Of a stretch of DNA of 64,000 nucleotides, positions 18,957 to 60,631 are shown piece by piece (position 1 is the first letter of the stretch; each line of letters starts with the position of its first letter). The stretch is from Naegleria gruberi (lineage: Eukaryota). A model generated the notes under the pieces. The model ran no database searches. It was given only the letters and a program-made list of their open reading frames with translations, and was not told where the DNA came from. Both the position numbers and the translations under genes were made by a program. The DNA lies in the NCBI GenBank assembly GCA_000004985.1, contig GG738895.1. One strand, written 5' to 3'.

Positions 18957-19426
18957 GTTAGTAGAGAGGGAAGTGAGATGTTTTTTTGTGGAAAGGATTC
19001 GAATACCTTCATCATGTGTTGACAGCTAATTTCGAATAAAAAAATGACCATAAAAGTAGCTTGGTTTTGATTTTTGGTAAATACGCATCTTGATATTCGG
19101 CAATTTTCAAATAGTTGACCAAAATCTCCAAACTAACCAATAATTGATATATCAATACTATCTCAATAACATGTGAATTTTTAGTTTAAATATTTATTCG
19201 AAATCATATGACAGTCAAACAATCGACAAATTAAGAACTATCCCCGTCCTTTCCTACCATTATTTTTACAATTTTATCCTTCATCATATTTCTTCAACAA
19301 TTATATCGATTATCGAAATCCTTACCACATCATAAAACACGAAAAAATAACAATTATCAAATTTATCACCAGCAAACACTGATTTTAAATTTTAATTTAT
19401 TTTAAAAATAAATTAAAAAATAATTT

Positions 19427-27262: not shown

Positions 27263-28540
27263 ATGTTCTCATCTTTGGCTAGTAGACTGGTTTCTGCTGT
27301 AGGATCTCTTTTGGGTAAGAGAAATCCCGAAGAAGTACACGACCCATTGGAACCAGAAAAGAAAAAGAAAGCTTCTGGTCGATATGATACACATACAGAT
27401 CACAAAGACTTTATTACCATGATATGTGAAATGAGATTAGCTCTTGCAAAGAGTGTAAGAAAATTGATACGGGATGAACTTGAGGATTGGCATGATAAGA
27501 TTACTGTACTTGGAATCACAACAGATTCAAGAAATAGTTACCTTTACTCTATGCACTGTTCTATTGAGAAGAATTCTTCAAACAACAAATTTGCGATCAC
27601 AAACTATTTTCTTAATTACATTGGAGCCTTTTCTCATTTTGATGAAAAAGATAGAATTCGACTAATGTCGAAAATTATTGTTGCGTTGACAACTCCAATT
27701 TTTGGATCAGTTGAACAATATTTTCAAACTCATCAAAGTGCTTTAGATACCGCTAAACAATCAGTTGACTTCCCAACACACTTCTGCTTCACAAATCCAC
27801 AACCAAACAATGTAATTGTTACTTATAACAAAGAACGAGAGTATGTAGCAACAGGAAAAGTGATCAAAAGAGCCACAGTTTCAAATTCAACCTCCATTTA
27901 TGTGAAACGTAACAAAAGTGCAAATGAGAATGAGATTGCACGTACACTAATGTTTGCATCCCTTTATATCATAGCAGAAAAATCCAAATATTGTCTTTCC
28001 TTAGCTGGAACTCCACTATCTCATTTTTTTAATAGCAGAAATAATCTCCCTTCTAACTCTATACTCAACTTCACTCTAGACTTGCTTGCTCAATTGTACA
28101 TGCTAGAACAACAAAGTCACATTCACAATGATGTAAAACCAGAAAAGTTGTTTACTTAGTTTTTAGGATATAGAGCTCCAGAGAGAAAAGATAATGATCT
28201 TGTCTCCCCAAAAAGTGACATTTATTCCCTAGGTTTGGTAATTCTCGGAATACTTGGAGGTAACAGATATAAAAATTGGGAATCAAAAGACGAGAAGGAA
28301 ATCTTTAAGAAATGTGATGGATTCAAAGACTCTGCAGTACACAAGTTTATTAAGAGAATGTTATACACAGATACAGGGCAAAGAGGCTCTCCATTAAATT
28401 TAGTGGAATTATTGGCATCAGATATCGAGATTAAACCTAAATTGATTGAAACTTTGGATTATTTTAAGAAGAGGGATAGATTTTGGAATTTATTTGAGAT
28501 CAACGATATTGATGTTGCTCGTACTTTGTACTTTGAATGA
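27263..28540 (+). pseudogene. Protein kinase-like gene interrupted by an in-frame TAG (28157-28159); DFG segment absent
   Basis: The same frame reads ...HIHNDVKPEKLFT-TAG-FLGYRAPERKDNDLVSPKSDIYSLGLVILGILGG... It has a catalytic-loop-like HNDVKPEKL, an APE motif and DIYSLG (subdomain IX), but only 7 residues lie between the catalytic loop and APE. No GT..AG intron can remove the stop. Confidence 0.4.
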
Positions 28541-29340: not shown

Positions 29341-32300
29341 ATGTCTGCTGAGAATAATCCTCTGCCCAACAATGAGCAACACTATAAGGGAACTCCACAC
29401 AATAGCAATGCGAATAATAACATGTGGGGTTTGTTGGATAATCCACCACATGTCAATCTCTCGACACAACTCCTTCATGGCAGTGTGAATTTTAATAATA
29501 GCACTAATAATGTGACCACCAATACAATACAACAACAGGACAATTCTTCATCAATTATTAGTTCACCCACTTCAGCATCAGCAGCCAACAATTCAGTCTC
29601 AATTATGAGATTTGTCAAGGATAACATGTGGCAATTCTTCTCCGTGATTCAACACAGGTATGCTGTTAAGGGAAGGAAAATTTATATACTTTTCACATTA
29701 TTACACATTTACTATTCGTATGTGGTGATGATTTTACCAACATTGAGTTCACAAATTAATTCTCCTGCCTTCTCTGCAACAACTACCACGACAACTAATT
29801 CTAATAGTGGAACAATCAACAGAGACACAACACTTCACAATTATCCTTATGGTTTCTATGGGACTTGGCTGTTTAAAGCAATGAATTATCCTATAACATT
29901 ATCATTGGATTGGATTCCCTATGAGGCTGCTATTGCCGTTACAATTTTTGGTTTATCAGTTGCCTTAGTTCATATAACGATTCTATTTCTCACATTCAAG
30001 ACTAATTTCGGTCGATTACAAGAGAAACTCAAGAATATTTCCTTCATGTTGGCCATCTTTATTCTTTTCATTGGACCACCAACAGCATTTGTAATGACTT
30101 CCTTTATTGACTGCAATTATCAGCAATTAATTTTTTCAGTCATTGACAAGATGTACTCTGCCTCTCTGTGGAGATATCCCAATGTAATTTGTTCGAGTAG
30201 TATGAACGTGAGCATGATTGTTGTGTCCATCATTTCAATAGTCTTGTTTAGTTTTGGTTGGCTCTTTTCCTTATTCATTTTACCAATGGCCAATCCAAAG
30301 AGTCAAATTCCCTTCCTCATTTCCTACAAACTACCAATGTGTGTCATTTACACATCAACTGGATTCAGAATTCTGGTTCATTTCGCCATTCCATCTCAAT
30401 ACTCGTATGCCAGAGCCGCATTCCACATTGTGGCCTCGATTGGATTTATTCTCTTCTTTACAGATACAGTTCCACTGTATCGACGTGTGGAGAATAGTAT
30501 ATTCTTTTCAGTCTTGTGCACTTATTGTGCATTTGCTGTTGGTTTGTTAGTTTCATCAATTGTGAACTCGTCAACAGCTATCATGAATTATGATCTTCTA
30601 GGAATTGGATTAGGAGCTGGTTTGACAGTTGGTTTACCAATTGTTGTTTGGATACTTTCATTCACAGGTTTTGAAATTTACACACGAGTAGTATTTAAAA
30701 ACATCCAAAAGATTGTGAGAAGAAAATTGGAACATGATTCTCAACATGATAATTTTGAAACAGCTCAATCATCAATTTACATGATGTGCGAAGAGTATTC
30801 CATGAGAAATTTGAAATTCTATCTTCAATTCGTGAGTCAAATGCCAAAATCACAAGAAATGGTTCAAGCTTTGAGTTTTGTGAAATCTGAATCTCCACAA
30901 AAGTTTTTCACATCACCTTCCATTTTAATGATGGCAAGTGATCTTGTCGCTAGATGTTGGGGAGATGAAAATAGATTGAACTTTGCATTGTTCCTCCTTA
31001 AGAAGGCATTGAAACATAATGAAGGTCCTTGGCTTGCCATGCAAATTAAATTCAAATTGAGAGATGTTGAGAGTGAATTGTTTGAAAATGCAAATTATGG
31101 AAAATTTGGATATGCTGTGAAAAATGTTTTGATGGAAATTGAAAAGAAACAAGATCAAATCAAATCAATTCACAAACTATTTTGGAAGGAATTATTGAGT
31201 GATATTCCAAATAATGAAAAACTTGAAAGAATCAATGCAACAGCCACACATTTGACCCATTACTGTGAAGAACAATTTGAACACTTGTTGGCAAACTTTG
31301 CACACGACAAGACTGTATTGAGATATTATGCCAACTTTTTAGAAACTATCAAACAAGATAAGGAATCAGCAGTAACTTATTATGAAGAAGCGGCCTCCTT
31401 GGAAGAAGAAGATTCCAAGAATAAGTTTACCATGAAACGTTTCAGAAATAAGGTCATTCCAGAGTTGGCCGAGTCACAATCTTGGAATTTTATGAGAAGT
31501 TCCAGTAGAAAGGAGTTCAACAATGAAGATGTTGAGAAGGATTCGTTTGATGGAGTTGAGAAACAACTCGAAAAGAAACAAAATATTTATAGAAATTCAT
31601 TGAATACTCCATTCAAATCTCGTTCTAGATTGATTAGCTTTTGTGCGTTGAATATGATTGGATTGGGTTTGTTGTTTGTGGCGTTTGTCCTGTCATTGGT
31701 TTATGGAGATTATTTATCAAAGACTGATTTGGTAAAAGTGTCAAGTTTACCAATTTTAACACCTGGAGCATTGTTGAGAGATATTAGAATGAGACAAATT
31801 GTTTATGAATTATTCAATGTTGAAAATAAGACCTATCCCTCAAATGGTACTTCCGAATTTAGTTCACTTTCTTTCTTTTTATCAAACTATAAGGATAGAA
31901 TTAGACGTCAGAGAGAAATCTTATTGGACTTGAGTAGTAAATCAAGATCTGGGGAATTTACAAGCAAAATGTATGCTGACTTTATTAGGGAAGATAATGT
32001 AATTTCGATTCCTGTTGCAAGTGAAAGTGGAAAAGTAGAGTTCAAGTCAACCTTTCCAAAGAATACTTCAATTAGTGATGTAGTTCATGAACTTATTCAA
32101 CATTCCACTTATTTTAATTTGGCCTCTGATTCTGAATTTAACAAGACAACAACTTCTTATCCATTCATGTATATTTACCATAATAGGAGAACTGCACCTG
32201 ATGTGACCTTTGCATTTTTCAAGAATTTTCAAGAGAGCCAAAAGTTCGTCGTTGATTATGTGAATGAATTGTTGTGGAATTACATTTTAATTTCAGCACT

Positions 32301-34551
32301 GGTCTATATTGGAATCTTTTCCGGATTTATCATCATGTCCAGAGTTGAAATGCAAAGAATTTCATTCATCCTAGCTCTATACAGAAAGCTGCCAAAAGAC
32401 ATGATTGGTGTCATTTATCATGAAATTGATAAGAAGGGAGAAGATGTCAAGTATGAGAAGAGTAATATCTTTTTAAGACCAAAGGAATTTTCACTTGTTG
32501 TTGCATTTTGCATTATTTTCATTATTGCCGCCTATTCTGGAATTATTTACTTTGAAATTTCAGAGAATGTTAGCACTTCTACTGATAATTTGACTACTGT
32601 TAATCAATTATCAATTTTGATTAGAGCTGCCCACAGGTTGACCATTCGATTGGGTGAATTATTTGCCTACTTTGGATGTCCTACTGGAAGTCCAGTCAAT
32701 ATTGTAGTTTCACCTAGCTATGTGGCTCAATATAGACAAGATGCAAGAGGTTTCGTCAGTTTAATTACATCCAGTTACAATGAAGTTGTTTATGGAAATA
32801 ATAACAGTCAACCATTAATTGGAAGATTCTCCAAGATTGATAACATCATTAATGGACCATCCAATTGTACAGCTGATTCACCAGTTGAAGAATGTTCCAG
32901 TTTACAAACCTTCATTTCAGCGTTTACAATTTCAAGTTCTCAAATGACTGAAGAATTTTTCAATCCAACTTATCAAAAATCTGATTCACTTTTTTATCAA
33001 GTTTTGAAAATTTACAATATGAATGATGTTCTTTATGAAAGATTAATGGATTTGATGAATTTATTGTTCATTTCCACTTCAGAATCATTCAAAGTTTTGA
33101 CTATTACCTTTTTTATCTTTGGAGTTATACTTTATTTATTGTTTAGTTCATTGTTATTGTATAGTTTCTTGATTTATGATAGACAGATCACTAATTTGAG
33201 ATCTTTCTTGAATTATTTACCTGTTGATTATATAGATTCAAGTGAAGCTATGAGAAATTTCATTTATTTCAACTCACTCACAATATTCAAAAAGAAAATT
33301 AAGGAAGCAAATGATGATTCATTGAGAAATGTGTTGAGTTCAATGGTAGATGGTGCTCTTCTTGTTAATGAAAAATCAGAAATTATGTTATTCAACTTGA
33401 CAGCTCAGAAAATGTTTGGAAAAGCTCCAGAAGAAGTTATTGGTTTGAAATTTTACAACTTGTTCGAACCAAGTCAAAGTGAAAAATTGACATCTGTGGT
33501 CAAACAAGTGAAATCATCGTTGACAGATCCAAACTCAAAACATGGTGAAACTTTGGAATTGGATTGTATCAGAAAGAATCAATCTAAATTTCCAGCCATT
33601 GTAAACATTTTTGCAACACGTGAAAGAGGAGTTGTCATTTATGCCTTCTTTATTAAGGACATTACATCAGAAAAGAAACAAAATGCATTATTGAACGAGG
33701 AAAAGAAGAATTCTGAAAATTTATTGAGAAACATCTTGCCAGATTCTGTTGCCTTCAAATTGAAAGCAGGTGAAACATTAATTGCTGACAAGTTTTCTGA
33801 TATCACCTGTTTCTTTTCAGATATGGTCGGTTTTACCAAGTTTAGTTCTGGAATGAATCCAAATGAATTGGTAATCATGTTGAATACAGTGGTTAACGGC
33901 TTTGATGATTTAACAGACAAGTATCAATTGGAGAAAATTAAAACAATTGGAGATGCATACTTTTGTGTAGGTGGATTGCACGGATTAAATGCTCAATCAG
34001 ATCACCCTGAAAGATGTGTTAAATTCGCAATTGACACTCTCCAAGTAATCAAAGATTACAACATTCAAAATCCACATGCACAAATCAATATTCGTGTTGG
34101 ATTGAATACTGGAAGTGTTGTTGCAGGTGTGATTGGAAGAAAGAAATTTGCCTATGATTTATGGGGTGATACCATTAATATTGCCTCAAGAATGGAATCA
34201 AATTCATTGTCAGGAAGAATTCAATTATCGAGATCAAGTTATGAAAGGGTTTATGATATTTTCGAATTTGAGGAACGTAAAATTGAAGTGAAAGGAAAAG
34301 GAATGACTCTTGCTTATTTATTGAAAGAAAAACATCATTGCAATCCAATCATTACCATTCAATCACATGATGATGAAGATGATGTGAATACTGATAATGA
34401 TGAAATTGAGGTAGAGAAGAAACCATCCATGCAAAACCTGACTGCTCACTCTCCAAATAGTGGCATTCCAAATATCACTAGAGAACACAGTTTGAATCAA
34501 CATGGCAACAATAGTACACCAAATGTTATGAGTGACACTATGGTATTCTAA
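29341..34551 (+). CDS. Polytopic membrane protein with a PAS domain and a C-terminal class III adenylyl/guanylyl cyclase domain
   Basis: 1736-aa single exon with many TM helices across residues ~100-1220. PAS-like segment (SMVDGALLVNEKSEIMLFNLTAQKMFGKAPEEVIGLKF...). The cyclase domain has both metal Asp (FSDMVGFT; IKTIGDAYF) and the Asn/Arg pair (GDTINIASRMES). Confidence 0.8.
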   Translation: MSAENNPLPNNEQHYKGTPHNSNANNNMWGLLDNPPHVNLSTQLLHGSVNFNNSTNNVTTNTIQQQDNSSSIISSPTSASAANNSVSIMRFVKDNMWQFFSVIQHRYAVKGRKIYILFTLLHIYYSYVVMILPTLSSQINSPAFSATTTTTTNSNSGTINRDTTLHNYPYGFYGTWLFKAMNYPITLSLDWIPYEAAIAVTIFGLSVALVHITILFLTFKTNFGRLQEKLKNISFMLAIFILFIGPPTAFVMTSFIDCNYQQLIFSVIDKMYSASLWRYPNVICSSSMNVSMIVVSIISIVLFSFGWLFSLFILPMANPKSQIPFLISYKLPMCVIYTSTGFRILVHFAIPSQYSYARAAFHIVASIGFILFFTDTVPLYRRVENSIFFSVLCTYCAFAVGLLVSSIVNSSTAIMNYDLLGIGLGAGLTVGLPIVVWILSFTGFEIYTRVVFKNIQKIVRRKLEHDSQHDNFETAQSSIYMMCEEYSMRNLKFYLQFVSQMPKSQEMVQALSFVKSESPQKFFTSPSILMMASDLVARCWGDENRLNFALFLLKKALKHNEGPWLAMQIKFKLRDVESELFENANYGKFGYAVKNVLMEIEKKQDQIKSIHKLFWKELLSDIPNNEKLERINATATHLTHYCEEQFEHLLANFAHDKTVLRYYANFLETIKQDKESAVTYYEEAASLEEEDSKNKFTMKRFRNKVIPELAESQSWNFMRSSSRKEFNNEDVEKDSFDGVEKQLEKKQNIYRNSLNTPFKSRSRLISFCALNMIGLGLLFVAFVLSLVYGDYLSKTDLVKVSSLPILTPGALLRDIRMRQIVYELFNVENKTYPSNGTSEFSSLSFFLSNYKDRIRRQREILLDLSSKSRSGEFTSKMYADFIREDNVISIPVASESGKVEFKSTFPKNTSISDVVHELIQHSTYFNLASDSEFNKTTTSYPFMYIYHNRRTAPDVTFAFFKNFQESQKFVVDYVNELLWNYILISALVYIGIFSGFIIMSRVEMQRISFILALYRKLPKDMIGVIYHEIDKKGEDVKYEKSNIFLRPKEFSLVVAFCIIFIIAAYSGIIYFEISENVSTSTDNLTTVNQLSILIRAAHRLTIRLGELFAYFGCPTGSPVNIVVSPSYVAQYRQDARGFVSLITSSYNEVVYGNNNSQPLIGRFSKIDNIINGPSNCTADSPVEECSSLQTFISAFTISSSQMTEEFFNPTYQKSDSLFYQVLKIYNMNDVLYERLMDLMNLLFISTSESFKVLTITFFIFGVILYLLFSSLLLYSFLIYDRQITNLRSFLNYLPVDYIDSSEAMRNFIYFNSLTIFKKKIKEANDDSLRNVLSSMVDGALLVNEKSEIMLFNLTAQKMFGKAPEEVIGLKFYNLFEPSQSEKLTSVVKQVKSSLTDPNSKHGETLELDCIRKNQSKFPAIVNIFATRERGVVIYAFFIKDITSEKKQNALLNEEKKNSENLLRNILPDSVAFKLKAGETLIADKFSDITCFFSDMVGFTKFSSGMNPNELVIMLNTVVNGFDDLTDKYQLEKIKTIGDAYFCVGGLHGLNAQSDHPERCVKFAIDTLQVIKDYNIQNPHAQINIRVGLNTGSVVAGVIGRKKFAYDLWGDTINIASRMESNSLSGRIQLSRSSYERVYDIFEFEERKIEVKGKGMTLAYLLKEKHHCNPIITIQSHDDEDDVNTDNDEIEVEKKPSMQNLTAHSPNSGIPNITREHSLNQHGNNSTPNVMSDTMVF

Positions 34552-35052: not shown

Positions 35053-38000
35053 ATGTCAACCCAAACAACAAAACCCTCCATTGTTCTCTTCATTAGGACC
35101 TCAAATTCATCAAAGAAGCAATCAATAATTTGTGATCATATTAGAAAGATGACTTTTGGCAAGCCCCATGAAGGTAATGCTCTATTAGTATTACAAGTTG
35201 GTTCAGAGCCAATTCTACTTGATGATCTTGTTATTAAATTGAAAGGATGGAAGATCGGACAACATGTTTCACAAGAACAACAACCTCCTCACTTTGTACA
35301 TACTAACAAGTTGCGAGATTGTTTGCAGTATTCGAAAGGTTCAACTCTTAAAAATTCTTCATGTACATTCAATGCATTGGATGTGAATGCATGCAATCAA
35401 CTTGAGAAAGGACAGCACTATGCTATTCGATTGAGTGATGTTAAATTGGCCTTTCTTCCACCTTCACTAGATTTTGATCAAGTGCAAGTTGAAATTTTCA
35501 AGAAGGATCAACTTGTTGGTGCAATTTCACATTCAAAACAAGAGGCCATCGACAGTCATATCGAAATGAGTGCAAAGAGTCTTGTTAGTAAATGGAAAAC
35601 AAAATCAAGATACGAACATTTGGATTTGATAGATGGAGTTGGAGCTGCAGATTTCATTGTAATTAATGTAGACGCTCTTATTTCAATGGCTTTAAAAAAG
35701 AGTAATGGATTGGATTGGAAAGAGCACGGTGGACAATGGTTGCATCTTGTATGGTTATGTGAAAAGATGCTCTCACTTCTAAAGTCCAGAAATGTGAATT
35801 TTGATCTAATTTGTTTTAAGAATTCAATTATTATGGATGGCAATTTCAGCTTTTTTGTTGCGAGAATGATAGTTTTCAATCATTTGAAAAAGTATTGTAC
35901 CTTTCCATGTTACTTGTTTGATTCATTATTATCAAAAGAGTGGGAGGAATATATCAGACAAGCCAATCCATCTGCAGTTATTTCAAGTGATTGCAATTAC
36001 ACAAATGCTTATTTGAATTTGATGTCTAATATTTCCTATATTGTAACAAATGTTGAAGAAGGTGCTAAATCTGTACTAGGTGATGTTTATTCAAGTGCTT
36101 ACCTATCATGGGTTAGGTCTGTAGAGCCAGAGCTAGACAATTTGTCAAAATTTTTACAAAATTCTTCAATTTCTAGCACTTTGAAGATTAGAGAATTTCA
36201 CCAATTAGAAAATGTTATGAAACAAGTTAATGAATTACAATTACATAGTAATTTTACAAGACTTGAGGTATTTTTAAGCTCTTTCCTATTATTTATTGAA
36301 AATTGTAAACAAGACAAAGTTATGGAAAGCTTGTTTTATGGTATTTCAATGATTTATTCAGTTGTCTTGTTGGATTACCTACCAATTGAAGCTAGACATT
36401 GTAATTTGAAAGAGACAATCAATGAATTGACACAATTCATGCAAGAGTTATACAAGTATTGCTCTATGGTACTATTTGAAATTGATAATTTCCAAGATAT
36501 TTCATGTGATTTATTGGATTGTAGATTGATTCATTGGCTGATTTTGAATTTCAAACCAAACAATCCATTTACACTAAATCAATGGATAGAGATTATATGT
36601 GAATTATCACCACAGCCTGTAAAAGATAGCTTGAATAAGATAGTACTATTGTTGAAAGAAAGAGTGTCATTCGATTTTGACTCTGACTTTGAATTTTCAT
36701 CTATTGTCAGCCCTTACATTAGAAATTATGCCTACGACTACAGTAATAGCAAAAACAGATGCACAGTATTAGAAGTTAAAAATAATTTCATTAACACATT
36801 CTGTAATTTACAATCTAGCTCAGTGATCCAAGAAGATTCCTTTAAAAAACCTTTATTTTATGATATTTATCACTTTCACTCCACAAGATTGATAACAGAC
36901 ACTGCAGAACATTTAGAAAGGAACAAGTATTCAACAGTTGACAAAACAAGAGAAAAGTTGAACGGAATGGTTGAATTATTTAAGAAAGTGAATAAGTGCA
37001 AAGAAATAGCAACTGAACAAGTACCAAAAGATTTAAAATTCACTGAGCATGTCAATGAAAAGAATATTATGAAAATAGTTTCTGAAAATTATGAAAAATC
37101 ACAGAAACCACTGAATGCCATTAAGGAAATTATTAGAAAACAAGAAAGTCTTGTTAAGAAAAAAGAAGACGAAGAAGAAACCTTTTCAATTTCAGAATTA
37201 GTATCAATTTCACTTACTATCCAGGAAAATATTCAACAATTTATACCTATTATGGGCAAATACAGTCCAAAGAATAACACCACAATGGTTTTTGGCAAGA
37301 AATTGTACATTCAATTATTAGATTCCTTCAAATATCAACTTCCAAAATCAAGAAAACCTATAGAATCTAAATTATTACAAAGAACAGTAGAGGGTCCCAC
37401 ATCTAAAATTTCATTGAACGAATTGGAAGAGCAAAAAGCCATGTACAGATTGTACCACGTTAATAGTTGGATAAGATTTATTTATTCATACTTGATGGAA
37501 CTAAACAGTCTATGTCTCTATTTCACTGAGAAGGAAATTGCCAAAGAATTGGAAAATCTTGCCACCTCTGCCAGAATGTTTGGATTTTGTCAAACGGCAC
37601 AATTAATTGAAAATGAAATTAGTCCAAAGAAAATTTCCAAACACGAGGAGGATATTATTGATCCAAATTATTTATTTTTATATCATTTTGAAAAAACAGC
37701 ACCAACAACACCTCCATTAGAAAGATTTACAAAGAAGAAACATAACCAAATTTTAAATGAACTAGTTCAAGAAAAGGTTCTTCTAATAGAGAAACTTAAA
37801 AAAGACTCCTCAACTAAATCTAGAGAAGAAATTTCACATGAAATCAAGAAAGTGAATGTAAATATCAAATTGAGAGAGAGTTTAACATTTACACCTGATG
37901 ATTGGCAAAATCAACTTATTTCTTATGTAAATAGAGATGAATCTGTGTTAGTCTCAGTGCCAACTTCAAATGGTAAAACATTTATTGTATTTTATTTGAT

Positions 38001-40797
38001 TGAAAAGGTGTTAAGAGAAAGTGAGAATGGTGTAGTATTATTTGTTGTGCCAAATAAGGCATTAGTCAATCAAGTTTATTGTGAAATCCAATCAAGATTG
38101 AAAAAGAATCAAAATAATATGGCCACAGCTGGTATGGCTACAGCAAATACAAGATTGGATGTATTTAATTCTCAATTACTTGTCATAGTACCTGCAATGT
38201 TGGAGATTTATTTAATGAGCTCAGCTCCAAAGGTTCTTGAGTGGAGAAAGAGAATTAAATATCTTGTCCTTGATGAAATACATTGTATAACAAGTGATGA
38301 TCAAGGTGAATACTATGAACATTGTATTCAATTATTAGATTGTCCTGTCATTGGATTATCTGCTACTTTGGGTAATTCTGAAAAATTTGCAAAATGGATG
38401 ACTCATGGATCGAGAGATAATGTACATTTAATTTATGAACCTGATTATAAAAGGTTCAATCCATTAGAATATCATAACTTTAATGGAACAGAAATTTCTC
38501 ATTCACATCCATGTGAATTATTTAATCCAAAATATCTAAATGAAAAGGAAATACAAAAATGTAGAATGATGACAATAGATGAATGTTTCCAATTAAAGAG
38601 AATGCTATTGGAAATAGATCAATCCGATGAGATGAAGGAAATAATCGAAACTCATGTTGGCTATCATTTATTGAATCGCAATAACCAATTGTCATGCATA
38701 ACTTGGAATGATCACATTCAGTACAAGCTTGGCTATAAACAATTAATGATCTACCTAGTGAATCATCCAACCAAACACAAAGTACTTTCCACTGTAGTGA
38801 GCTCATTACAAATGTCATACGCAGACGAAAATATTAAGCCAGTTGAATTTGTAGATGATATGATACACTTGATCATCAAAATGAAGAAGGAAAAGATGCT
38901 TCCCTCCATAGTATTCATTTTAGATAGGAGGATGATTGATCTTATGGTTAGAACCTTACTGCATAGAAATGTCTATTTATATGAAAATGAGGAAGATTGT
39001 CCGAGAGCTGATATTTTGAGACTAAATATTGATGATAATGATAGCGAAAAGACTATCAATAGGTATTATATTGATGCACTATCTCATGGAATTGGAGCTC
39101 ACTATGCTGGTATGAACGATGGCTATTTAATTGAAATTGAAAGACTCTTTAGAGAGAAGAAATTACCACTCATATTTACAACCTCCACTCTAGCTCTTGG
39201 TATTCATCTTCCTTGTAAAACAGTAGTTATGGCTGGAAGTTCCATTTATTTAACCAATTCACTTTTTAAACAATGTTGTGGAAGAGTTGGAAGAAGAGGA
39301 ATAGATCAGAAAGGTAAAGTTATTCTATATGGACTGAGTAAACCAAGAATTAGAAGATATTTACTGTCAGAACCTATTTCCATCAATGGAACAGTTGGCT
39401 TAAAACCAAGCTTCATTCTTAAAATGTTTACATCTCTTAATCAAGCTGAACAGGATTTAAAATCTGGTGAAAAAAATCCATTCCAAGATGCATTCCAAAG
39501 AGTATTAGAAAAACCATTATTTTCCATTAATGAAAATACAATGATTGCAACACAATCACAAATGTCATACTTTATCAGATTCCATACAGAATTTTTGAGA
39601 CAAGCAATGTTCCTTAATAAGAAATGTAATCCTCTTCAATTGAGTGGATTAATTGGACATCTCCATTATAGAGAACCTTTCAACTTTTTAATGGCACACT
39701 TTTTACAAACTCGAATTTTTGAAATGTTGGATATTAACAAGATTAGGGAACACGAATTTGATAAGATTATTTTAACCATTTTTACTTTGCTCTTTGCCAG
39801 ATATAGAGTTGGCAAACACATGTCGCAAAATACGTTGGACACTGACTTTACGAAAAACATGTCCAATATTTATAGGAAAATGATTGAGAAAAATGTTGAA
39901 TTCAATAATGAAACATTGGGAATTTATTCCAATTATGCTATTGCCTATTGTTTGAGTGAAAAATTGAAAGATGAAACCCTTCCACTTTCTGATTATTCAA
40001 CAATTATTTTAAAGGAATGTGAAAGTGAGTGCAAACTATTTACCGAATTGAAAAAGAGTCGATCTACAAATACTCACTCAATTTCTTCATTTTCTGCATT
40101 AAGTGGAAATGAAGATGGTAAATATCTAACAGAAGATCATTTCTTTTCCACTCTAAAGCATACAATTTCAATTAATAAGGCACACGTACCATTTACTAGT
40201 GCTTTGTCTGATGAAGACCATCCAATAAGTTGTTTCCTTTTGGATTACTATGGACATGGATCTTTGAAGATTCTCACAGAAGATCATCAATTTATCAACA
40301 TTGGTGCAAGCTCTAAACTTATCAGTGAAGCCATTAGAGATTTGAAGAAATTGAGAGCTAGTTTGATTAATGAAGAAATATTTTCATTTTCAATTTCAGA
40401 TTATGAACGAAAATTGGATAGTGGAGTTGTTTCTGAATGGTTAGTTAAGGAGTGTCCTTGGTTGAAGAATAATCCCAATTTAGAATTGATAACATTTGAA
40501 AAACTCTATAATTGGTTAACAAAAAACGTGCTAGAGATAGAGGTATCTGCACTGTTTCCTATTAGGGGAAATGGATTGAAGATGTTGAAAAGAAAAATTG
40601 AAAATAGATTTGCTCATCCAATTATTCAAAGTCTTGATAGAATCTTATCTAAACTTGAGGAAGGTGAAAGAAGAGAAAGACAACAATCTTTTAATGAAAG
40701 AAAAGAAATCAAACAAAAGAAACAATCATTGCGGAATGATTTGGATTCAGTTGAGAGTTTTAAGGGTATCAAGCATGCAAAATCAAATTTCATGTGA
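35053..40797 (+). CDS. Ski2-like DExH-box superfamily-2 helicase with a ~900-aa N-terminal extension of unknown function
   Basis: 1914-aa single exon. Motif I VPTSNGKTFIV, motif II LVLDEIHCI (DEIH), motif III LSATLGN, Ski2-type IGAHYAGM, motif VI QCCGRVGRRGID. The N-terminal ~900 aa and C-terminal ~450 aa have no recognisable domain. Confidence 0.75.
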   Translation: MSTQTTKPSIVLFIRTSNSSKKQSIICDHIRKMTFGKPHEGNALLVLQVGSEPILLDDLVIKLKGWKIGQHVSQEQQPPHFVHTNKLRDCLQYSKGSTLKNSSCTFNALDVNACNQLEKGQHYAIRLSDVKLAFLPPSLDFDQVQVEIFKKDQLVGAISHSKQEAIDSHIEMSAKSLVSKWKTKSRYEHLDLIDGVGAADFIVINVDALISMALKKSNGLDWKEHGGQWLHLVWLCEKMLSLLKSRNVNFDLICFKNSIIMDGNFSFFVARMIVFNHLKKYCTFPCYLFDSLLSKEWEEYIRQANPSAVISSDCNYTNAYLNLMSNISYIVTNVEEGAKSVLGDVYSSAYLSWVRSVEPELDNLSKFLQNSSISSTLKIREFHQLENVMKQVNELQLHSNFTRLEVFLSSFLLFIENCKQDKVMESLFYGISMIYSVVLLDYLPIEARHCNLKETINELTQFMQELYKYCSMVLFEIDNFQDISCDLLDCRLIHWLILNFKPNNPFTLNQWIEIICELSPQPVKDSLNKIVLLLKERVSFDFDSDFEFSSIVSPYIRNYAYDYSNSKNRCTVLEVKNNFINTFCNLQSSSVIQEDSFKKPLFYDIYHFHSTRLITDTAEHLERNKYSTVDKTREKLNGMVELFKKVNKCKEIATEQVPKDLKFTEHVNEKNIMKIVSENYEKSQKPLNAIKEIIRKQESLVKKKEDEEETFSISELVSISLTIQENIQQFIPIMGKYSPKNNTTMVFGKKLYIQLLDSFKYQLPKSRKPIESKLLQRTVEGPTSKISLNELEEQKAMYRLYHVNSWIRFIYSYLMELNSLCLYFTEKEIAKELENLATSARMFGFCQTAQLIENEISPKKISKHEEDIIDPNYLFLYHFEKTAPTTPPLERFTKKKHNQILNELVQEKVLLIEKLKKDSSTKSREEISHEIKKVNVNIKLRESLTFTPDDWQNQLISYVNRDESVLVSVPTSNGKTFIVFYLIEKVLRESENGVVLFVVPNKALVNQVYCEIQSRLKKNQNNMATAGMATANTRLDVFNSQLLVIVPAMLEIYLMSSAPKVLEWRKRIKYLVLDEIHCITSDDQGEYYEHCIQLLDCPVIGLSATLGNSEKFAKWMTHGSRDNVHLIYEPDYKRFNPLEYHNFNGTEISHSHPCELFNPKYLNEKEIQKCRMMTIDECFQLKRMLLEIDQSDEMKEIIETHVGYHLLNRNNQLSCITWNDHIQYKLGYKQLMIYLVNHPTKHKVLSTVVSSLQMSYADENIKPVEFVDDMIHLIIKMKKEKMLPSIVFILDRRMIDLMVRTLLHRNVYLYENEEDCPRADILRLNIDDNDSEKTINRYYIDALSHGIGAHYAGMNDGYLIEIERLFREKKLPLIFTTSTLALGIHLPCKTVVMAGSSIYLTNSLFKQCCGRVGRRGIDQKGKVILYGLSKPRIRRYLLSEPISINGTVGLKPSFILKMFTSLNQAEQDLKSGEKNPFQDAFQRVLEKPLFSINENTMIATQSQMSYFIRFHTEFLRQAMFLNKKCNPLQLSGLIGHLHYREPFNFLMAHFLQTRIFEMLDINKIREHEFDKIILTIFTLLFARYRVGKHMSQNTLDTDFTKNMSNIYRKMIEKNVEFNNETLGIYSNYAIAYCLSEKLKDETLPLSDYSTIILKECESECKLFTELKKSRSTNTHSISSFSALSGNEDGKYLTEDHFFSTLKHTISINKAHVPFTSALSDEDHPISCFLLDYYGHGSLKILTEDHQFINIGASSKLISEAIRDLKKLRASLINEEIFSFSISDYERKLDSGVVSEWLVKECPWLKNNPNLELITFEKLYNWLTKNVLEIEVSALFPIRGNGLKMLKRKIENRFAHPIIQSLDRILSKLEEGERRERQQSFNERKEIKQKKQSLRNDLDSVESFKGIKHAKSNFM

Positions 40798-40899: not shown

Positions 40900-42723
40900 T
40901 TATTTACTTCTTACACATCCCTGAAGGATTTGTGTTGCCAGTTCCTTTTCAGATGAAGAGTAAAAATCAGCCAAAATGATCTTAATGTCATTCTTCGAGT
41001 CTAGGTAAATAAAATCCTTCAACTTTTCAATCATTTTGAGTTTGGAACTACAAGTGATAAGGTCTACCATTGTGAAAATCTTGAGAAGATCCATTGCATT
41101 CATCTTTTGAATGTTTCCACTTGAAATCAAAAGATCAAGGAATTCCTTCTTACTGAACGAATATTTGAGAATTCCACTAATAGCTTCAATTTGAGGAATG
41201 GTTAACACTTCTGTTGAATTCCATACAATTCGTTGCAATTGTGATGATAAATTCCACTTATCTTTAGCTCCTTGATGCACTATCTCAGCAAACAGTGTAC
41301 TTGATCCTCCCACTTTTTTCACCATTGCATTGGTAAATGATCTAAGTTCCAAATAATTTTGAATATTTCCTTTCACCGCAAATGCTGTTATGACATAAGC
41401 AATTCTAAACATCCATTTTTGACCTGTGGATAGATCAGATGGTTTGAATCCAAAGACTTCTAATAAGTGGTTTCCAACAGCTACGAACGGCATCTTGGCA
41501 ACATTCCAACAGAGTTTCATGATTGAGTTTTTGGATTTTACAATCTTTTCTCTTTCCTCTTTAAATTTAGTAATTTTAGATTGAATGAAATTAACATCTT
41601 CTTCCTTTTGATTGAATGAAATGGTTGACTTGAGAATTTGTGAGTCTGCTCTCGTGATACCATACTTTCCAATGTCATCTCTCAATAATTGTAAAAATTC
41701 AAAACAATTTTGTAACTTTTGATCTCCAAAAAGTGGAATTTCACTACTATCAATGAATAGAATATTTCCAACAGAAGCAGATCCAATCTTGTAATTATAA
41801 ACAATTTCAGGTCTCTGAACAGTGAATTGATTTGAAATGTATTCACTAATTAGAGGATAGGTTGATGGAAATTGTGTCACGAAAAACTTGGAAAGAATGT
41901 TTGAATGAGTCTCCAAATCTGGAATTTTGAAAAACACAGTGGAAGAGAATGAATTTTGGTCAAAGGTTGGAACTGCCATCAAGGTAACTTCCTCAGATTG
42001 GAAAACATGAATTTCATCATCACTCATCAATGGATTCAACACATCAAATGGAATATTCAATCTCATGTAAGCATAATTTGATGGAGATTGAGAAACTGAC
42101 AAGCTTGAATTAAAACTACTCAATAATGATCTCAGAACGAAACTCTTTCTCTCACAATCAATAATCATTTGTGAGAGAATTTCTTCTTGATTTCCTTCCT
42201 TGGTGATATATTTGAGAGATGGCAATTTCTGGTCTTGACTATTCTTAATTTCCATTTGTTCGTCAAAGCATTCCAATCGCATTTCAACATTTGGACTTGT
42301 TTGTGAAAGAAAGTCCACAATTGCTCTCTTCAAATCGCTCACTTTAATCAAGGCCTTTCTTTCATTAATAGCTGATAATTCTCTCTTATTGTCCAACATG
42401 ATATTCACAGAATATCCCTTCAAATTCCTATAAGAAACCTTTCCTTTCAACAAGTGCCAATCAATTAACTTTCCCAAACTTGCAGTTCCCTCAACATCCA
42501 AAAACAACACATCATTACTATTTCCCGATTCAAATGATGAAGTCAATATAAACTTTTGCATTGGATATTCCCTTGCCAAAAACAAGGTAATTAAATGTGC
42601 AGTCAATGAACATTCACTTCTTCCTGCATTAATAATGATCGGATTCTCACACCCGATGTGTTTTCCATTTGATGATGATGATGATGAAGAACTCGAAGCA
42701 GCAGCAGTACTTGATACGGTCAT
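40900..42723 (-). CDS. Hypothetical protein; N-terminus resembles a degenerate GBP/atlastin-type G domain
   Basis: First ATG is at 42723 (track start is TTG). Poly-Ser N-terminus. IIINAGRSECSL (degenerate P-loop) sits ~45 aa before LFLDVEGT, matching the GBP-family DTEG G3 motif. The rest is unrecognised. Confidence 0.45.
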   Translation of the reverse strand: MTVSSTAAASSSSSSSSSNGKHIGCENPIIINAGRSECSLTAHLITLFLAREYPMQKFILTSSFESGNSNDVLFLDVEGTASLGKLIDWHLLKGKVSYRNLKGYSVNIMLDNKRELSAINERKALIKVSDLKRAIVDFLSQTSPNVEMRLECFDEQMEIKNSQDQKLPSLKYITKEGNQEEILSQMIIDCERKSFVLRSLLSSFNSSLSVSQSPSNYAYMRLNIPFDVLNPLMSDDEIHVFQSEEVTLMAVPTFDQNSFSSTVFFKIPDLETHSNILSKFFVTQFPSTYPLISEYISNQFTVQRPEIVYNYKIGSASVGNILFIDSSEIPLFGDQKLQNCFEFLQLLRDDIGKYGITRADSQILKSTISFNQKEEDVNFIQSKITKFKEEREKIVKSKNSIMKLCWNVAKMPFVAVGNHLLEVFGFKPSDLSTGQKWMFRIAYVITAFAVKGNIQNYLELRSFTNAMVKKVGGSSTLFAEIVHQGAKDKWNLSSQLQRIVWNSTEVLTIPQIEAISGILKYSFSKKEFLDLLISSGNIQKMNAMDLLKIFTMVDLITCSSKLKMIEKLKDFIYLDSKNDIKIILADFYSSSEKELATQILQGCVRSK

Positions 42724-43009
42724 TTCTTCTCCCAATTTTAAAATATTATGAAATTTAATTATTTAATTATTTGATGATGAGAAATCTTTGTTTTTTTTTG
42801 TAAGTTTTGAAAAATTTTGTCTAAAAAAAGAATTTTTGTTCAGTAAAAGTTCTTCTTTCAGCCAATTGATTTGATATTTCAATCAAAATGATTCAAATCC
42901 AATACAAATCCAATAGATTGGATGGCTTTCACACTTTCCGTATGATCCTTTTACAATAGAATACACTTTTCAAAGTTCATCAATAATCGAACCATAAAAA
43001 CTGGAAAAA

Positions 43010-55084: not shown

Positions 55085-55237
55085 AATTGATTGATTTTAA
55101 TGAGGCAACCTTTGAACGAAAAATAACAAGAAAAATTGTGTATTTTTTGCTTGGTGTTTGTGCCACAATTTTTCTTGTTTTACCTGAGAACACACTTGCT
55201 CTATGACCGAAGAAAATTGAAAAATCAATAGAAAAAA

Positions 55238-55618
55238 ATGAATACAACCTTTCCCTTCGAAATAAATTACACATCTTGTGGCAAAGATCATGTTTTTAAA
55301 TTGGGCAAAAAGTCAAATGTTCTAATAGATCTGCAAGATTTTCCCAGCTCGATGAATTTCCAACTCAGAGTCATCAATTTCACTGGTGGCTCCTCTCTTG
55401 GTCAAGTAATTTTTGGTGAACGAGAGTTTCATGATGCTGGTTTTCACTTGGTTTTGGATTTTGAAAAGATTTACAGAGTTTGGGTAGAGAACAGTGAGGT
55501 GAAGGTCGAGTTGGTGCTTATTTCAGAGGAAGGAGAGCAAAGAGTGGTTTCTGAGTTTTTGGGAGAGTTGAATGGAAGGGGTGGGATTAGAAAGTGGTGT
55601 TGTGGAAAGTGGCTGTGA
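55238..55618 (+). CDS. Small hypothetical protein (126 aa)
   Basis: ATG-initiated ORF with coding-like, GC-richer codon usage. Ends ...RKWCCGKWL*. No recognised domain. Confidence 0.3.
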   Translation: MNTTFPFEINYTSCGKDHVFKLGKKSNVLIDLQDFPSSMNFQLRVINFTGGSSLGQVIFGEREFHDAGFHLVLDFEKIYRVWVENSEVKVELVLISEEGEQRVVSEFLGELNGRGGIRKWCCGKWL

Positions 55619-55841
55619 GTTTAGTTTTGTGAAAAAGATTGAGAAATTATTCGAAATTATTCAAAACAATCACCAATATTGAAATCGAATAGATTTAATG
55701 TAAAATACAAAATATCTTGCAAGCATTGATTTAAACATGCCTTAACAAGAAACCAAAACGAAACTTGCTAGTTTTAGAAATAAGGCGCCAAATTTTGCAT
55801 TTTCAAATTTAAAAAAAAATATAACAAAAATCTCGCCCTCG

Positions 55842-58421: not shown

Positions 58422-58607
58422 CAGTATCATGTACAAACGAATATATTGTATTAATTTAACAATTATCACTCTCTGAAATACAATATTCATACATTAGAAA
58501 ATACTCTTCTCTCTTTTCCAAACGTCATCAACTGTCTCCAATCATCACTGCACACAAATTATTATAATTTCATTACCAACAACTAACAAAATCATCATCA
58601 ATAAAAA

Positions 58608-60631
58608 ATGTTTGGAATCTTCTCAGCATCATCTTCCATCAGTAGTGCTGCTACTGCTGCTGTTGCGGGAAGAAGATCCTACTATAAACAACATCAGGAA
58701 CAAATTCATCGTCATCATCAACGTGGCAAATTCCTTCCAACAAGAACAACAACAATTTGTCTCCTCCTTCTCATAATACTTCTCCAATTACTTTCAGAGG
58801 CAAATGTTGTTCATTCCTTGACCTTTTCTAAACGTTTTTGGAATGCCAATTGTACATCGGAGACGTATCTTCGTGATTGTGGTGAAGAATTAATTTGTGA
58901 TACAAGTATTGGAAAGTGTTCCTTCTGTGCCAATACAACACAATGTTCAACAGTATTTGGATCAATGAGACAATGTAGAAGATCAATATTGGCAGATCAG
59001 TTGCAGGATTTATATCCAAGTTTGATCACCGATCCGAGAGCTCCTATCCATGGAGGTGTTTGTTATCATAAGGATTTATTTCCACAATTTTCATATTTGG
59101 ATGCTATTGCAACTGTGATTTCATTCCTCGGAAGTGTCTTGTCAACAATGGCTGGAATTGGTGGAGGTGGTTTGATTGTTCCATTGATGGAAACTGCAGG
59201 TCAATTTCCTCCTCAAATGGCTGTTGGTATTTCAAAGACAATGATTTTTGGTGCTTGTAAGTACAGTGTTTGAATGATTTGTATTCGAGTTGAGTTGTGC
59301 GAATATTTATGATGATAATGATTGTGTGTGAAATAGCCATTTCAAATTTCATTGCTCTTTCATTGAAGAGACATCCACACGCTGATAGACCACTTATTAA
59401 TTATGATGTGGCACTTTTACTTCAACCTACTTCATTGGTGGGTGTCTTGGTTGGTGTTTTATTGAATAGTATGACTCCTAATTGGCTCATTGTCTTGTTG
59501 AGTGCTATTATTTTGACAATTGTCAGTTTGACAACATTTGTCAGAGCTGGTAGAATGTGGAGGGCCGAAAGTGCAGCCAAATTAGTTGGTTCAAACAATG
59601 GTTCATCTGCAAACTATCATCAAATTACAGATAATGGAGTAAATAATGATACTATTATTTCAGATGACGAAGACGAAACATTTGACAGACCAAAAAATAC
59701 CAACAATGAAAATGTATTGGAAACTTCCCTATTAGGAGAAGATGAATTGGAACAAATGGAACAGGAAAATATTGAAAAGGAGGAAAAGAAACAAATTGCC
59801 AGAAAAGTCTTACACAATGAAAAATCCACTCCATTCACAAAGCTTTTCGTTTTGGTTTTATGTTGGGTTATTGTATTTATTTTGACAATTGTCAGAGGTG
59901 GCCATGGTGCTCCAAGTGTTTTCCACATTGATCACTGTTCTGTTTGGCATTGGGTCTTATTTGCTGCCATGTTTCCAATAATGATTGCTGTTTCATATAT
60001 GGTTGGTGTCTATCTTGTTAGAAAACACAAAGAAAGATCAGCACTCGTTAGCCATGGATACAGATTCGTAGCTGGAGATCCTCACTGGAGTGTTGGAACT
60101 GTAATTCTCTATCCAGTTTTTTCTGCTCTTTCAGGAGTAATTGCTGGTATGCTTGGTGTTGGAGGTGGAATGATTAAATCACCAATGCTTCTCTATCTAG
60201 GATTGGATCCACTTGTTGCAGCAGCTACTGCTTCATTCATGATGTTGTTCACATCCTCAATTTCATCCATTCAGTTCGTTATTTTGGGAACTGTTCCATT
60301 TGATTATGGTCGTAAGTATTATTGTGTGCATAATTAATATTTATTCATTTATTATCATAATAATTTATTGCTACTTTAGTATGGTATTTCGTTTTTGGAT
60401 TATTGTAAGTAGAAATTGTAATGTTTTGTAATATTAATTGATTTTAGTGCTGGTATGGTTGGTCAGATATTGATGCATTTCGTATTCCAGAAAGGAAGAA
60501 AATCAGTGCTTGTCTTTATTGTGGCCTTTATCATTATTGTTTCAACATTATGCATGACTGGTTTTGGTATTTACAATGCTGTCATTATGTTGCAAAACAA
60601 TATGTATATGGGTTTCCACTCAATTTGTTAG
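58608..60631 (+). CDS. TSUP (TauE/SafE, DUF81) family membrane transporter, 4 exons including a 25-nt micro-exon
   Basis: Two TSUP Gly-rich signatures (MAGIGGGGLIVPLM; GMLGVGGGMIKSPML). Exons 58608..59256, 59337..60311, 60380..60404 and 60448..60631. Introns of 80, 68 and 43 nt (GTAAGT..AATAG, GTAAGT..TTTAG, GTAAGT..TTTAG) keep the frame and hydrophobic continuity (...PFDYG-LWYFVFGLL-FAGMVGQILM...). Confidence 0.7.

What the first reader, a model, noticed from the sequence alone, without database searches (positions are those of the whole stretch)
35053..40797. Ski2-like DExH helicase with a ~900-aa uncharacterised N-terminal region, in one exon
The helicase core has Ski2/Brr2/HFM1-type motifs. 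It is preceded by ~900 aa and followed by ~450 aa with no recognisable domains. No intron is present in a 5.7 kb gene, although small genes nearby are intron-rich.
Basis: partly seen in the sequence, partly recalled or inferred. Interest (0 to 1): 0.5.

Follow-up and report, generated by a model that had tools for sequence, protein, structure and literature searches.

The report
Naegleria DDX60-family RNA helicase gene
The 5.7-kb intronless gene is real and encodes the Naegleria gruberi member of the known DDX60 family of RNA helicases; its "uncharacterised" flanks are the standard parts of that family, so it is an ordinary, under-annotated gene.

Summary
The ORF at 35053..40797 (+) is real: 1914 codons, no stop, and 100% identical to an NCBI "predicted protein" of Naegleria gruberi. 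The helicase motifs are intact (GKT974, DEIH1074, SAT1103, QxxGRxGR1407).

"Ski2-like" is correct but too coarse. This is a DDX60-family helicase.
- The best solved-structure match is kDDX60 of the Trypanosoma cruzi 43S pre-initiation complex (E 9e-59). Mtr4, Ski2 and Brr2 score E ~1e-28 or weaker.
- The protein aligns end to end with DDX60-like proteins of N. lovaniensis, Willaertia, S. pombe (SPAC694.02), an acorn worm and Thecamonas.

The flanks are not domain-less.
- Residues ~350-935 are a helical region with family-conserved blocks.
- Residues ~1431-1775 are the winged-helix and ratchet domains that complete a Ski2-type helicase.

Lineage-specific parts are the first ~175 residues (coding, poorly conserved, low model confidence) and a ~140-residue C-terminal tail.

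The ORF is not low-complexity and not a fusion artefact. Being intronless is unremarkable here: ten ORFs of 500 aa or more in this window are uninterrupted. Interest is low.

The parts
35053..40797 (+). Complete single-exon gene for a 1914-aa DDX60-family Ski2-like DExH RNA helicase (stop codon included).
   Evidence: ORF list. 100% identical to the N. gruberi predicted protein P0001. Collinear with full-length DDX60-like proteins.
35053..35577 (+). Residues 1-175: lineage-specific N-terminal extension. It is coding but poorly conserved, and the model predicts beta-rich structure at low confidence.
   Evidence: Codon-usage log-likelihood is +51 bits in frame 0 against -29 and -77 in the other frames. 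Only N. lovaniensis has a counterpart, and that similarity is not significant (E 0.086). No hit from 1.84e9 representatives covers it. pLDDT is 33-67.
35590..36096 (+). Residues ~180-348: PIN-like_DDX60 domain (PF23002 type) with a FEN1/Exo1/GEN1/XPG-like 5'-nuclease fold. Family-conserved residues are D207, G226-G227-Q228, H231, E237, R271, H277 and P306. Position 205 is Asn here and Asp/Glu in the other 25 aligned relatives.
36100..37857 (+). Residues ~350-935: mostly helical middle region with family-conserved blocks. These include LP..R448, D486..D489-x-R-L492, the H607-x-H609 motif and G844-F845. The linkers at residues 555-700 are poorly predicted.
37882..38484 (+). Residues ~944-1144: RecA1 domain with motif I (GKT974), motif II (DEIH1074) and motif III (SAT1103).
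   Evidence: Pfam DEAD E 1.6e-24. Motif positions. 42% identity to DDX60-like P0003. Alignment with kDDX60 residues 1019-1196.
38485..38889 (+). Residues ~1145-1279: helical insertion between RecA1 and RecA2, shared with DDX60-like proteins. It contains the invariant H1152-P1153 block.
   Evidence: Alignment A1. AF2 helices at model residues 246-350.
38890..39342 (+). Residues ~1280-1430: RecA2 domain with motif VI (Q1407..GR.GR).
   Evidence: Pfam Helicase_C. Motif position. Alignment with kDDX60 residues 1612-1782.
39343..40377 (+). Residues ~1431-1775: winged-helix and helical-bundle (ratchet) region that completes the Ski2-type helicase. A poorly predicted loop lies at ~1635-1707.
   Evidence: BLASTP aligns residues 1311-1771 to P0003 residues 1281-1745 of 1774 (E 7e-36). 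Foldseek matches Mtr4 6c90_A at E 2e-22 with TM 0.70 over 851 columns, and also Ski2, kDDX60, Hel308 and Brr2.
40378..40797 (+). Residues ~1776-1914: helical C-terminal tail. It aligns with N. lovaniensis and Willaertia (P0013 and P0014 align in part) and is absent from the animal, fungal and Thecamonas proteins, which end before it.
   Evidence: Alignment A1, columns ~2716-2960. AF2 helices at model residues 854-968.

Best explanation
The gene encodes the Naegleria gruberi orthologue of the DDX60 family, an ancient eukaryotic branch of Ski2-like DExH RNA helicases. The family includes vertebrate DDX60/DDX60L, S. pombe SPAC694.02 and kinetoplastid kDDX60.

Shown here:
- An intact ATPase/helicase core made of RecA1, a family-specific helical insertion and RecA2.
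- Closure of that core by C-terminal winged-helix and ratchet domains, as in Mtr4, Ski2 and Hel308.
- An N-terminal PIN-like domain of FEN/XPG fold, followed by a conserved helical region, preceding the core.

Inferred from the family:
- The protein is an ATP-driven 3'->5' RNA translocase or RNP remodeller.
- It most likely acts in the cytoplasm on the translation machinery. In T. cruzi, kDDX60 sits on the intersubunit face of the 40S subunit in the 43S pre-initiation complex and contacts eIF3c, eIF5 and the initiator-tRNA anticodon stem-loop (PMC7773551). Human DDX60 lowers translation from type II IRESs and needs both its N- and C-terminal extensions to do so (PMC9724679).
- The PIN-like domain probably serves as a nucleic-acid- or partner-binding module rather than an active nuclease in this species. 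Position 205, acidic in all 25 aligned relatives, is Asn here.
- The first ~175 residues and the last ~140 residues are lineage-specific additions of unknown role.
For: - The ORF and its identity to the N. gruberi protein are confirmed.
- The motifs are intact and no segment is low-complexity beyond two marginal 40-residue windows.
- kDDX60 is the best PDB sequence hit: E 9e-59, 202 bits. Mtr4 reaches 102 bits, and Ski2 and Brr2 score lower.
- RecA1 is 40-42% identical to DDX60-like proteins. The C-terminal region aligns to the end of a 1774-aa DDX60-like protein at E 7e-36. N-terminal residues 199-511 align to that protein's PIN-like region.
- The N-terminal query found 47 relatives. The long ones are 1700-2100-aa helicases with the match at their N-terminus.
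- These relatives carry PF23002 PIN-like_DDX60.
- hhalign gives 99.9% probability. The N-terminal profile hits only kDDX60 in the PDB at E 8e-6.
- The relatives were named as N. lovaniensis, Willaertia, S. pombe SPAC694.02, Ptychodera DDX60 and Thecamonas.
- The full-length alignment is collinear.
Against: - A direct Pfam scan of the Naegleria N-terminal region does not reach PF23002 at any listed E-value. The domain call rests on transitive and profile-profile evidence.
- No tree with Mtr4, Ski2, Brr2 and HFM1 outgroups was built here. Family placement rests on score ranking, shared architecture and a published Discoba DDX60 tree that does not name Naegleria (PMC10639054).
- Nothing here tests ribosome binding, localisation or helicase activity in Naegleria. 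The kinetoplastid A-site insert is described as kinetoplastid-specific (PMC7773551), so the 43S role may not transfer.
- The T. brucei orthologue also affects nuclear RNA-DNA hybrids (PMC10639054), so the cellular role of the family is unsettled.
- The N-terminal model is only moderately confident (mean pLDDT 65.6).
Confidence: 0.9

Rival explanations
1. It is the Naegleria orthologue of one of the classical Ski2-like helicases, carrying a species-specific N-terminal extension. The candidates are the exosome cofactors Mtr4 and Ski2, the spliceosomal or RQC helicases Brr2, ASCC3 and Slh1, HFM1, and POLQ-like helicases.
For: All of these are significant sequence matches to the core, at E 1e-28 to 1e-6. 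Mtr4 and Ski2 are the best Foldseek matches for the helicase plus C-terminal model.
Against: - kDDX60 scores about twice the bits of any of them.
- No Pfam match to the arch, DSHCT or Sec63 domains, and no second cassette.
- The best Mtr4 fold match is an Mtr4 chain with only 694 modelled residues (TMt 0.70). Longer Mtr4 chains score TM ~0.4.
- The N-terminal region carries the DDX60-specific PIN-like domain.
- The insertion between RecA1 and RecA2 is shared with DDX60-like proteins.
Confidence: 0.04
2. The long ORF is a gene-model or assembly artefact that fuses an unrelated upstream gene to a helicase gene. A variant is that the true start is Met172 and the first 171 codons are untranslated.
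For: Residues 1-175 have no significant relative, even in N. lovaniensis. The Willaertia protein begins at the position equivalent to residue ~185. Met172 lies just before the PIN-like domain.
Against: - The same order of PIN-like domain, helical region, helicase and WH/ratchet is found in one polypeptide in heteroloboseans, a fungus, an animal, Thecamonas and kinetoplastids.
- There is no stop codon and no assembly gap inside the gene.
- The first 171 codons have coding-type codon usage in frame 0 only.
- 195 open codons upstream of Met172 would occur by chance at about 8e-6.
- N. lovaniensis also has a long extension.
Confidence: 0.04
3. The protein is a coupled helicase-nuclease. The N-terminal FEN/XPG-fold PIN-like domain would be an active endo- or exonuclease that cuts RNA or RNA-DNA substrates delivered by the helicase.
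For: - The family conserves acidic residues at positions 205, 207 and 237.
- T. brucei DDX60 was recovered with RNA-DNA hybrids, and its loss raises their level (PMC10639054).
Against: - Only three acidic positions are conserved. By my recollection (not tested here), FEN1-type active sites use about seven carboxylates.
- In N. gruberi position 205 is Asn, the only non-acidic residue among 26 aligned sequences.
- The position after the second strand is not conserved across the family.
- No nuclease activity is reported for DDX60 in the papers read.
Confidence: 0.1

Closest known systems
kDDX60 of Trypanosoma cruzi (PDB 7ASE/7ASK; 43S pre-initiation complex helicase)
   Same: - It is the best sequence match in the PDB for both RecA domains (E 9e-59).
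- It is the only significant PDB hit of the N-terminal profile (E 8e-6).
- Both organisms are Discoba.
- The overall order is the same: PIN-like N-terminus, helical region, DExH core, WH/ratchet.
   Different: - kDDX60 is 2174 aa against 1914 aa here.
- It is described with a kinetoplastid-specific A-site insert that contacts the initiator-tRNA anticodon stem-loop (PMC7773551). Whether Naegleria has an equivalent was not established.
- Ribosome association is unknown in Naegleria.
Metazoan DDX60/DDX60L (interferon-stimulated Ski2-like helicase) and S. pombe SPAC694.02
   Same: - Collinear over the full length.
- PF23002-type PIN-like domain at the N-terminus.
- 40-42% identity in RecA1.
- The C-terminal region aligns to the end of the animal-type protein.
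- Shared insertion between RecA1 and RecA2.
   Different: - Naegleria adds ~175 N-terminal and ~140 C-terminal residues.
- It lacks the long charged insertion that the animal-type proteins carry before RecA2 (alignment columns ~2001-2150).
- Position 205 is Asn.
- Interferon regulation and antiviral IRES targeting (PMC9724679) have no obvious meaning in an amoeboflagellate.
Mtr4 / Ski2 (exosome-associated Ski2-like helicases)
   Same: DExH core plus a winged-helix and helical-bundle ring. Foldseek gives E 2e-22 and TM 0.70 to an Mtr4 chain with 694 modelled residues, over 851 columns.
   Different: - No arch/KOW insertion or DSHCT match.
- Half the sequence score of kDDX60.
- Mtr4 and Ski2 lack the PIN-like N-terminal domain and the insertion between RecA1 and RecA2.
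FEN1 / Exo1 / GEN1 / XPG structure-specific 5' nucleases (PIN-like superfamily)
   Different: Sequence identity is 7-11%. Only three acidic positions are conserved in the DDX60 family, and one of them is Asn here. No evidence of catalysis.

Membership tests
DDX60 family (DDX60/DDX60L/kDDX60/SPAC694.02) | Ski2-like DExH core with intact motifs I, II (DExH), III (SAT) and VI (QxxGRxGR). | tested here: met
   GKT974, DEIH1074, SAT1103 and QCCGRVGR1407 are present. Pfam DEAD E 1.6e-24 and Helicase_C E 4e-5.
DDX60 family (DDX60/DDX60L/kDDX60/SPAC694.02) | Closer to DDX60-type helicases than to any other Ski2-like subfamily. | tested here: met
   kDDX60 scores 202 bits (E 9e-59) against 102 bits for Mtr4 and 80-86 bits for Ski2 and Brr2. 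The closest non-identical relatives found are DDX60-like. This is a ranking by score, not a tree.
DDX60 family (DDX60/DDX60L/kDDX60/SPAC694.02) | N-terminal PIN-like_DDX60 domain (Pfam PF23002). | tested here: met
   The direct hmmscan is negative. Other evidence is positive:
- phmmer hits at E down to 1e-15 fall on PF23002-bearing regions.
- hhalign gives probability 99.9%, E 6.6e-34.
- The N-terminal profile hits the kDDX60 N-terminus at E 8e-6.
DDX60 family (DDX60/DDX60L/kDDX60/SPAC694.02) | Family-type helical insertion between RecA1 and RecA2, and a C-terminal WH/ratchet region alignable to the end of DDX60. | tested here: met
   The invariant H1152-P1153 block and collinear alignment. 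Residues 1311-1771 align to P0003 residues 1281-1745 at E 7e-36. PF26076 is precomputed on this protein and on the DDX60-like P0002 and P0003. That model is not in the local Pfam copy, so its name was not verified.
DDX60 family (DDX60/DDX60L/kDDX60/SPAC694.02) | Monophyly with DDX60 in a phylogeny that includes Mtr4, Ski2, Brr2/ASCC3, HFM1 and POLQ outgroups. | not tested
A published tree places Discoba homologues in the DDX60 branch but does not name Naegleria (PMC10639054).
kDDX60 (kinetoplastid 43S-PIC helicase) as a functional class | Binding to the 40S intersubunit face within the 43S PIC, and an A-site insert contacting the initiator tRNA. | not testable with these tools
   This needs biochemistry or cryo-EM. 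The sequence alignment of residues 1330-1497 with kDDX60 residues 1612-1782 is nearly gap-free. The position of the insert was not mapped here.
Mtr4/Ski2 subfamily | Arch (stalk plus KOW) insertion and a DSHCT-type C-terminal domain. | tested here: not met
   No Pfam match to the arch or DSHCT families. The best fold match is an Mtr4 chain with 694 modelled residues; longer Mtr4 chains give TM ~0.4.
Brr2/ASCC3/Slh1 subfamily | Tandem helicase cassettes, each followed by a Sec63 domain. | tested here: not met
   A single DEAD/Helicase_C pair and no Sec63 (PF02889) match. The ASCC3/Slh1-type hits in the same search do carry Sec63.
FEN/XPG (Rad2) structure-specific nucleases | PIN-like 5'-nuclease fold. 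| tested here: met
   [not shown]
FEN/XPG (Rad2) structure-specific nucleases | Full set of conserved active-site carboxylates binding two metal ions. | tested here: inconclusive
   Only positions 205, 207 and 237 are conserved acidic residues across 26 DDX60-type sequences, and 205 is Asn in N. gruberi. No residue-level structural superposition was available.

The most novel reading that the evidence does not exclude
The DDX60 architecture, a FEN-fold PIN-like domain fused to a Ski2-like helicase, would date to the last eukaryotic common ancestor as a housekeeping factor of translation initiation or mRNA surveillance on the 40S subunit. Free-living Naegleria would retain that ancestral role, and the vertebrate antiviral function would be a later co-option. 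The Naegleria-specific ~175-residue N-terminal module would then be a new, fast-evolving partner-binding domain.
Probability: 0.12. Interest if true: 0.45.

Novelty: new member of a known kind. Interest (0 to 1): 0.15.

Why it matters
The practical gain is annotation. A 1914-aa "predicted protein" of N. gruberi can be named a DDX60-family helicase, with its domains placed.

The result also shows that the full DDX60 architecture is present in Heterolobosea as well as in kinetoplastids, fungi, animals, Thecamonas and Bigelowiella. That supports an ancient, probably housekeeping origin for a family best known as an interferon-stimulated gene. It also offers a free-living relative of trypanosomes in which the 43S-associated role of kDDX60 could be tested.

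None of this would surprise a helicase specialist.

Tried and rejected
- **Direct Pfam scans of the flanks.** Scans of residues 1-933 and 1425-1914 at E up to 10 gave only spurious or no matches.
- **Indexed homology search.** It returned only 10 hits with the protein and 8 with a 9-sequence alignment.
- **The look-up of encoding contigs.** It has no record for this protein.
- **afdb50 fold library.** It was not available, so no AlphaFold-database neighbours such as human DDX60 models could be listed.
- **Low-complexity explanation.** Rejected. Entropy is 4.06-4.16 bits in all three parts, and only two 40-residue windows fall just under 3.3 bits.
- **Fusion-artefact and short-start explanations.** Rejected on collinearity with orthologues, codon usage and open-frame probability.
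- **Conservation of residues 1-175 in N. lovaniensis.** Not significant (E 0.086).
- **Literature.** Searches for a DDX60 structure or ribosome paper beyond PMC7773551 and PMC9724679 found nothing relevant. Published intron statistics for N. gruberi were not retrieved.
Full report
**Observation.** The window holds an uninterrupted ORF at 35053..40797 on the + strand. It starts with ATG and has 1914 codons. The frame is open from 34981. Its translation is 100% identical over the full length to an NCBI/UniRef "predicted protein [Naegleria gruberi]" (P0001). The window is therefore N. gruberi DNA, and the public gene model is the same single exon. Pfam places DEAD at residues 952-1108 and Helicase_C at 1344-1416. 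Motifs I (GKT974), II (DEIH1074), III (SAT1103) and VI (QCCGRVGR1407) are intact.

**Composition.** None of the three parts is low-complexity. Entropy is 4.06-4.16 bits, and only two 40-residue windows fall just below 3.3 bits.

**Introns.** The contrast with neighbouring genes is weak. The window holds ten uninterrupted ORFs of 500 aa or more, including the 1736-aa cyclase gene immediately upstream. Only a few neighbouring genes show one or two candidate GTAAGT/GTGAGT...YAG introns at ORF junctions. Those candidates were not checked against transcripts. I could not retrieve published intron statistics for N. gruberi. My recollection that the genome averages fewer than one intron per gene is unverified here.

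**Which helicase.** The best match among all PDB sequences is kDDX60, the helicase of the Trypanosoma cruzi 43S pre-initiation complex (7ASE chain f). It scores E 9e-59 and 202 bits, and both RecA domains align. Mtr4 reaches 102 bits, and Ski2 and Brr2 reach 80-86 bits.

Pairwise BLASTP to a 1774-aa DDX60-like protein (P0003) was informative. P0003 carries Pfam PIN-like_DDX60 at E 9e-107. The comparison gave:
- 42% identity in RecA1;
- an alignment of residues 1311-1771 to P0003 residues 1281-1745, which is nearly its C-terminus (E 7e-36);
- a weaker collinear alignment of residues 199-511 to its PIN-like region (E 1e-4).

**The N-terminal region.** I searched residues 1-933 alone, with no helicase sequence, against 1.84 billion representative proteins. 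This found 47 relatives at E <= 1e-3.
- The closest are 1777-2073-aa proteins of N. lovaniensis (E 3e-111, match to residues 174-733) and Willaertia magna (E 6e-32).
- Most of the remaining hits match residues ~180-315. Where the hit is a long protein, the match lies at its N-terminus.
- These hits carry PF23002 PIN-like_DDX60: 21 of 22 fragments, best E 6e-32.
- A profile of the five closest relatives' N-terminal regions (N. gruberi, N. lovaniensis, Willaertia and two unnamed sequences) matches a profile of those fragments with hhalign probability 99.9%, E 6.6e-34, over window residues ~178-380.
- The same profile hits only one PDB sequence significantly: the N-terminus of kDDX60 (residues 125-269, E 8e-6).

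**Full-length alignment.** A nine-sequence alignment is collinear from the PIN-like domain to the C-terminal region. It includes N. lovaniensis, Willaertia, two unnamed sequences, P0003, S. pombe SPAC694.02, Ptychodera flava DDX60 and Thecamonas trahens (identities). Conserved blocks run through the "uncharacterised" middle: R448, D486/D489/L492 and G844 across all nine, plus R491, H607, H609 and F845 among the five closest. A shared helical insertion between RecA1 and RecA2 holds the invariant H1152-P1153.

This rules out a fusion artefact. It also satisfies every sequence-level feature I could list for DDX60 membership. The one item not done is a proper tree with outgroups. A published tree places Discoba homologues inside the DDX60 branch with full support, but it does not name Naegleria (PMC10639054).

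**Structure of the N-terminal half.** AlphaFold2 with a 26-sequence alignment gave a moderate model for residues 1-940, with mean pLDDT 65.6.
- Confident regions are ~200-550 and ~700-880.
- Poor regions are 1-200 and 555-700.

Foldseek's best hits were also FEN1, but they were not significant. The domain therefore has a FEN/XPG-type PIN-like fold.

**Is the PIN-like domain an active nuclease?** Across 26 aligned sequences the conserved positions are acidic 205, D207, GGQ226-228, H231, E237, R271, H277 and P306. N. gruberi is the only sequence with a non-acidic residue (Asn) at 205. Few carboxylates are conserved, and one of them is replaced here. On that basis I infer the domain is more likely a binding module than an active nuclease in this species. 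This is inference, not a test.

**Structure of the helicase and C-terminal half.** The model for residues 930-1914 has mean pLDDT 73.9 and pTM 0.70. It superposes on an Mtr4 chain with 694 modelled residues over 851 columns (E 2e-22, TM 0.70). It also matches Ski2, kDDX60, Hel308, PolQ and Brr2. The "domain-less" C-terminal ~350 residues are therefore the winged-helix and ratchet domains that every Ski2-like helicase needs. No arch, DSHCT or Sec63 module was detected.

**What is specific to this lineage.**
- Residues 1-175 have no significant relative, not even the N. lovaniensis extension (E 0.086). They are still clearly coding: codon-usage log-likelihood is +51 bits in frame against -29 and -77 out of frame, and 195 open codons would occur by chance at about 8e-6.
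- Met172 would give a protein starting where the Willaertia protein starts. A shorter true start cannot be excluded without transcript data, but it is unlikely.
- Residues ~1776-1914 form a helical tail that aligns with N. lovaniensis and Willaertia, and in part with P0013 and P0014. It is absent from the animal, fungal and Thecamonas proteins.

**Mechanism.** Shown here is an intact Ski2-type ATPase ring with a FEN-fold N-terminal module. The rest is inferred from the family: an ATP-driven 3'->5' RNA translocase or RNP remodeller, most likely acting on the translation machinery.
- kDDX60 binds the 40S intersubunit face in the 43S complex. It contacts eIF3c, eIF5, 18S rRNA and the initiator-tRNA anticodon stem-loop, and ATP changes the 40S head conformation (PMC7773551).
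- Human DDX60 lowers type II IRES translation and needs its ATPase residues and both extensions (PMC9724679).
- T. brucei DDX60 is cytoplasmic and apparently essential, yet its loss also raises nuclear RNA-DNA hybrids (PMC10639054). The family's cellular role is therefore not settled.

**Verdict.** This is an ordinary, under-annotated member of a known family. The only mild curiosities are the lineage-specific termini and the Asn at a conserved acidic position of the PIN-like domain.

Noticed in passing
window 1-430: About 72 tandem copies of a hexamer (TRF unit ACCCAA, i.e. AAACCC, which is TTTGGG on the other strand) at 99% match lie at the very start of the window. The C-rich strand reads inward, as expected for a chromosome-end telomere array. 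The window therefore seems to begin at a scaffold or chromosome end.
   Followed up: partly
window 1229-1526: A run of N (an assembly gap of ~300 bases) lies in the AT-rich subtelomeric stretch. It explains the 'open in all six frames' segment seen in the ORF map.
   Followed up: yes
window 29341-34551 (+): The upstream neighbour is an intronless 1736-aa multi-pass membrane protein. It has TmcB-type TPR repeats, a PAS domain and a C-terminal adenylate/guanylate cyclase catalytic domain (E 4e-52).
   Followed up: partly
window 40900-42735 (-) and 27263-28159 (+): The convergent downstream neighbour (611 aa) and a 298-aa ORF have no Pfam match at E <= 1e-3. The downstream gene ends only ~100 bases from the helicase stop codon.
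   Followed up: no
window 35665-35667 (residue 205 of the helicase): The first acidic residue of the PIN-like domain's D/E-x-D motif is Asn in N. gruberi and Asp/Glu in all 25 other aligned DDX60-type sequences. Willaertia and one unnamed relative instead have Asn at position 207. Heteroloboseans may be relaxing this site.
   Followed up: partly
[not shown]
   Followed up: no
window 16263-19025 (-), 55232-58418 (+), 58605-60334 (+): Adjacent same-strand ORFs are separated by short AT-rich segments with canonical GTAAGT/GTGAGT...YAG ends. These are candidate introns of 41-130 bases, and the only signs of introns near the helicase gene.
   Followed up: partly
P0011 (N. lovaniensis XP_044547272) versus the window protein: The two Naegleria orthologues share only ~44% identity overall, and their N-terminal extensions are not detectably similar. 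The gene seems to evolve quickly within the genus. No genome-wide baseline was computed.
   Followed up: no
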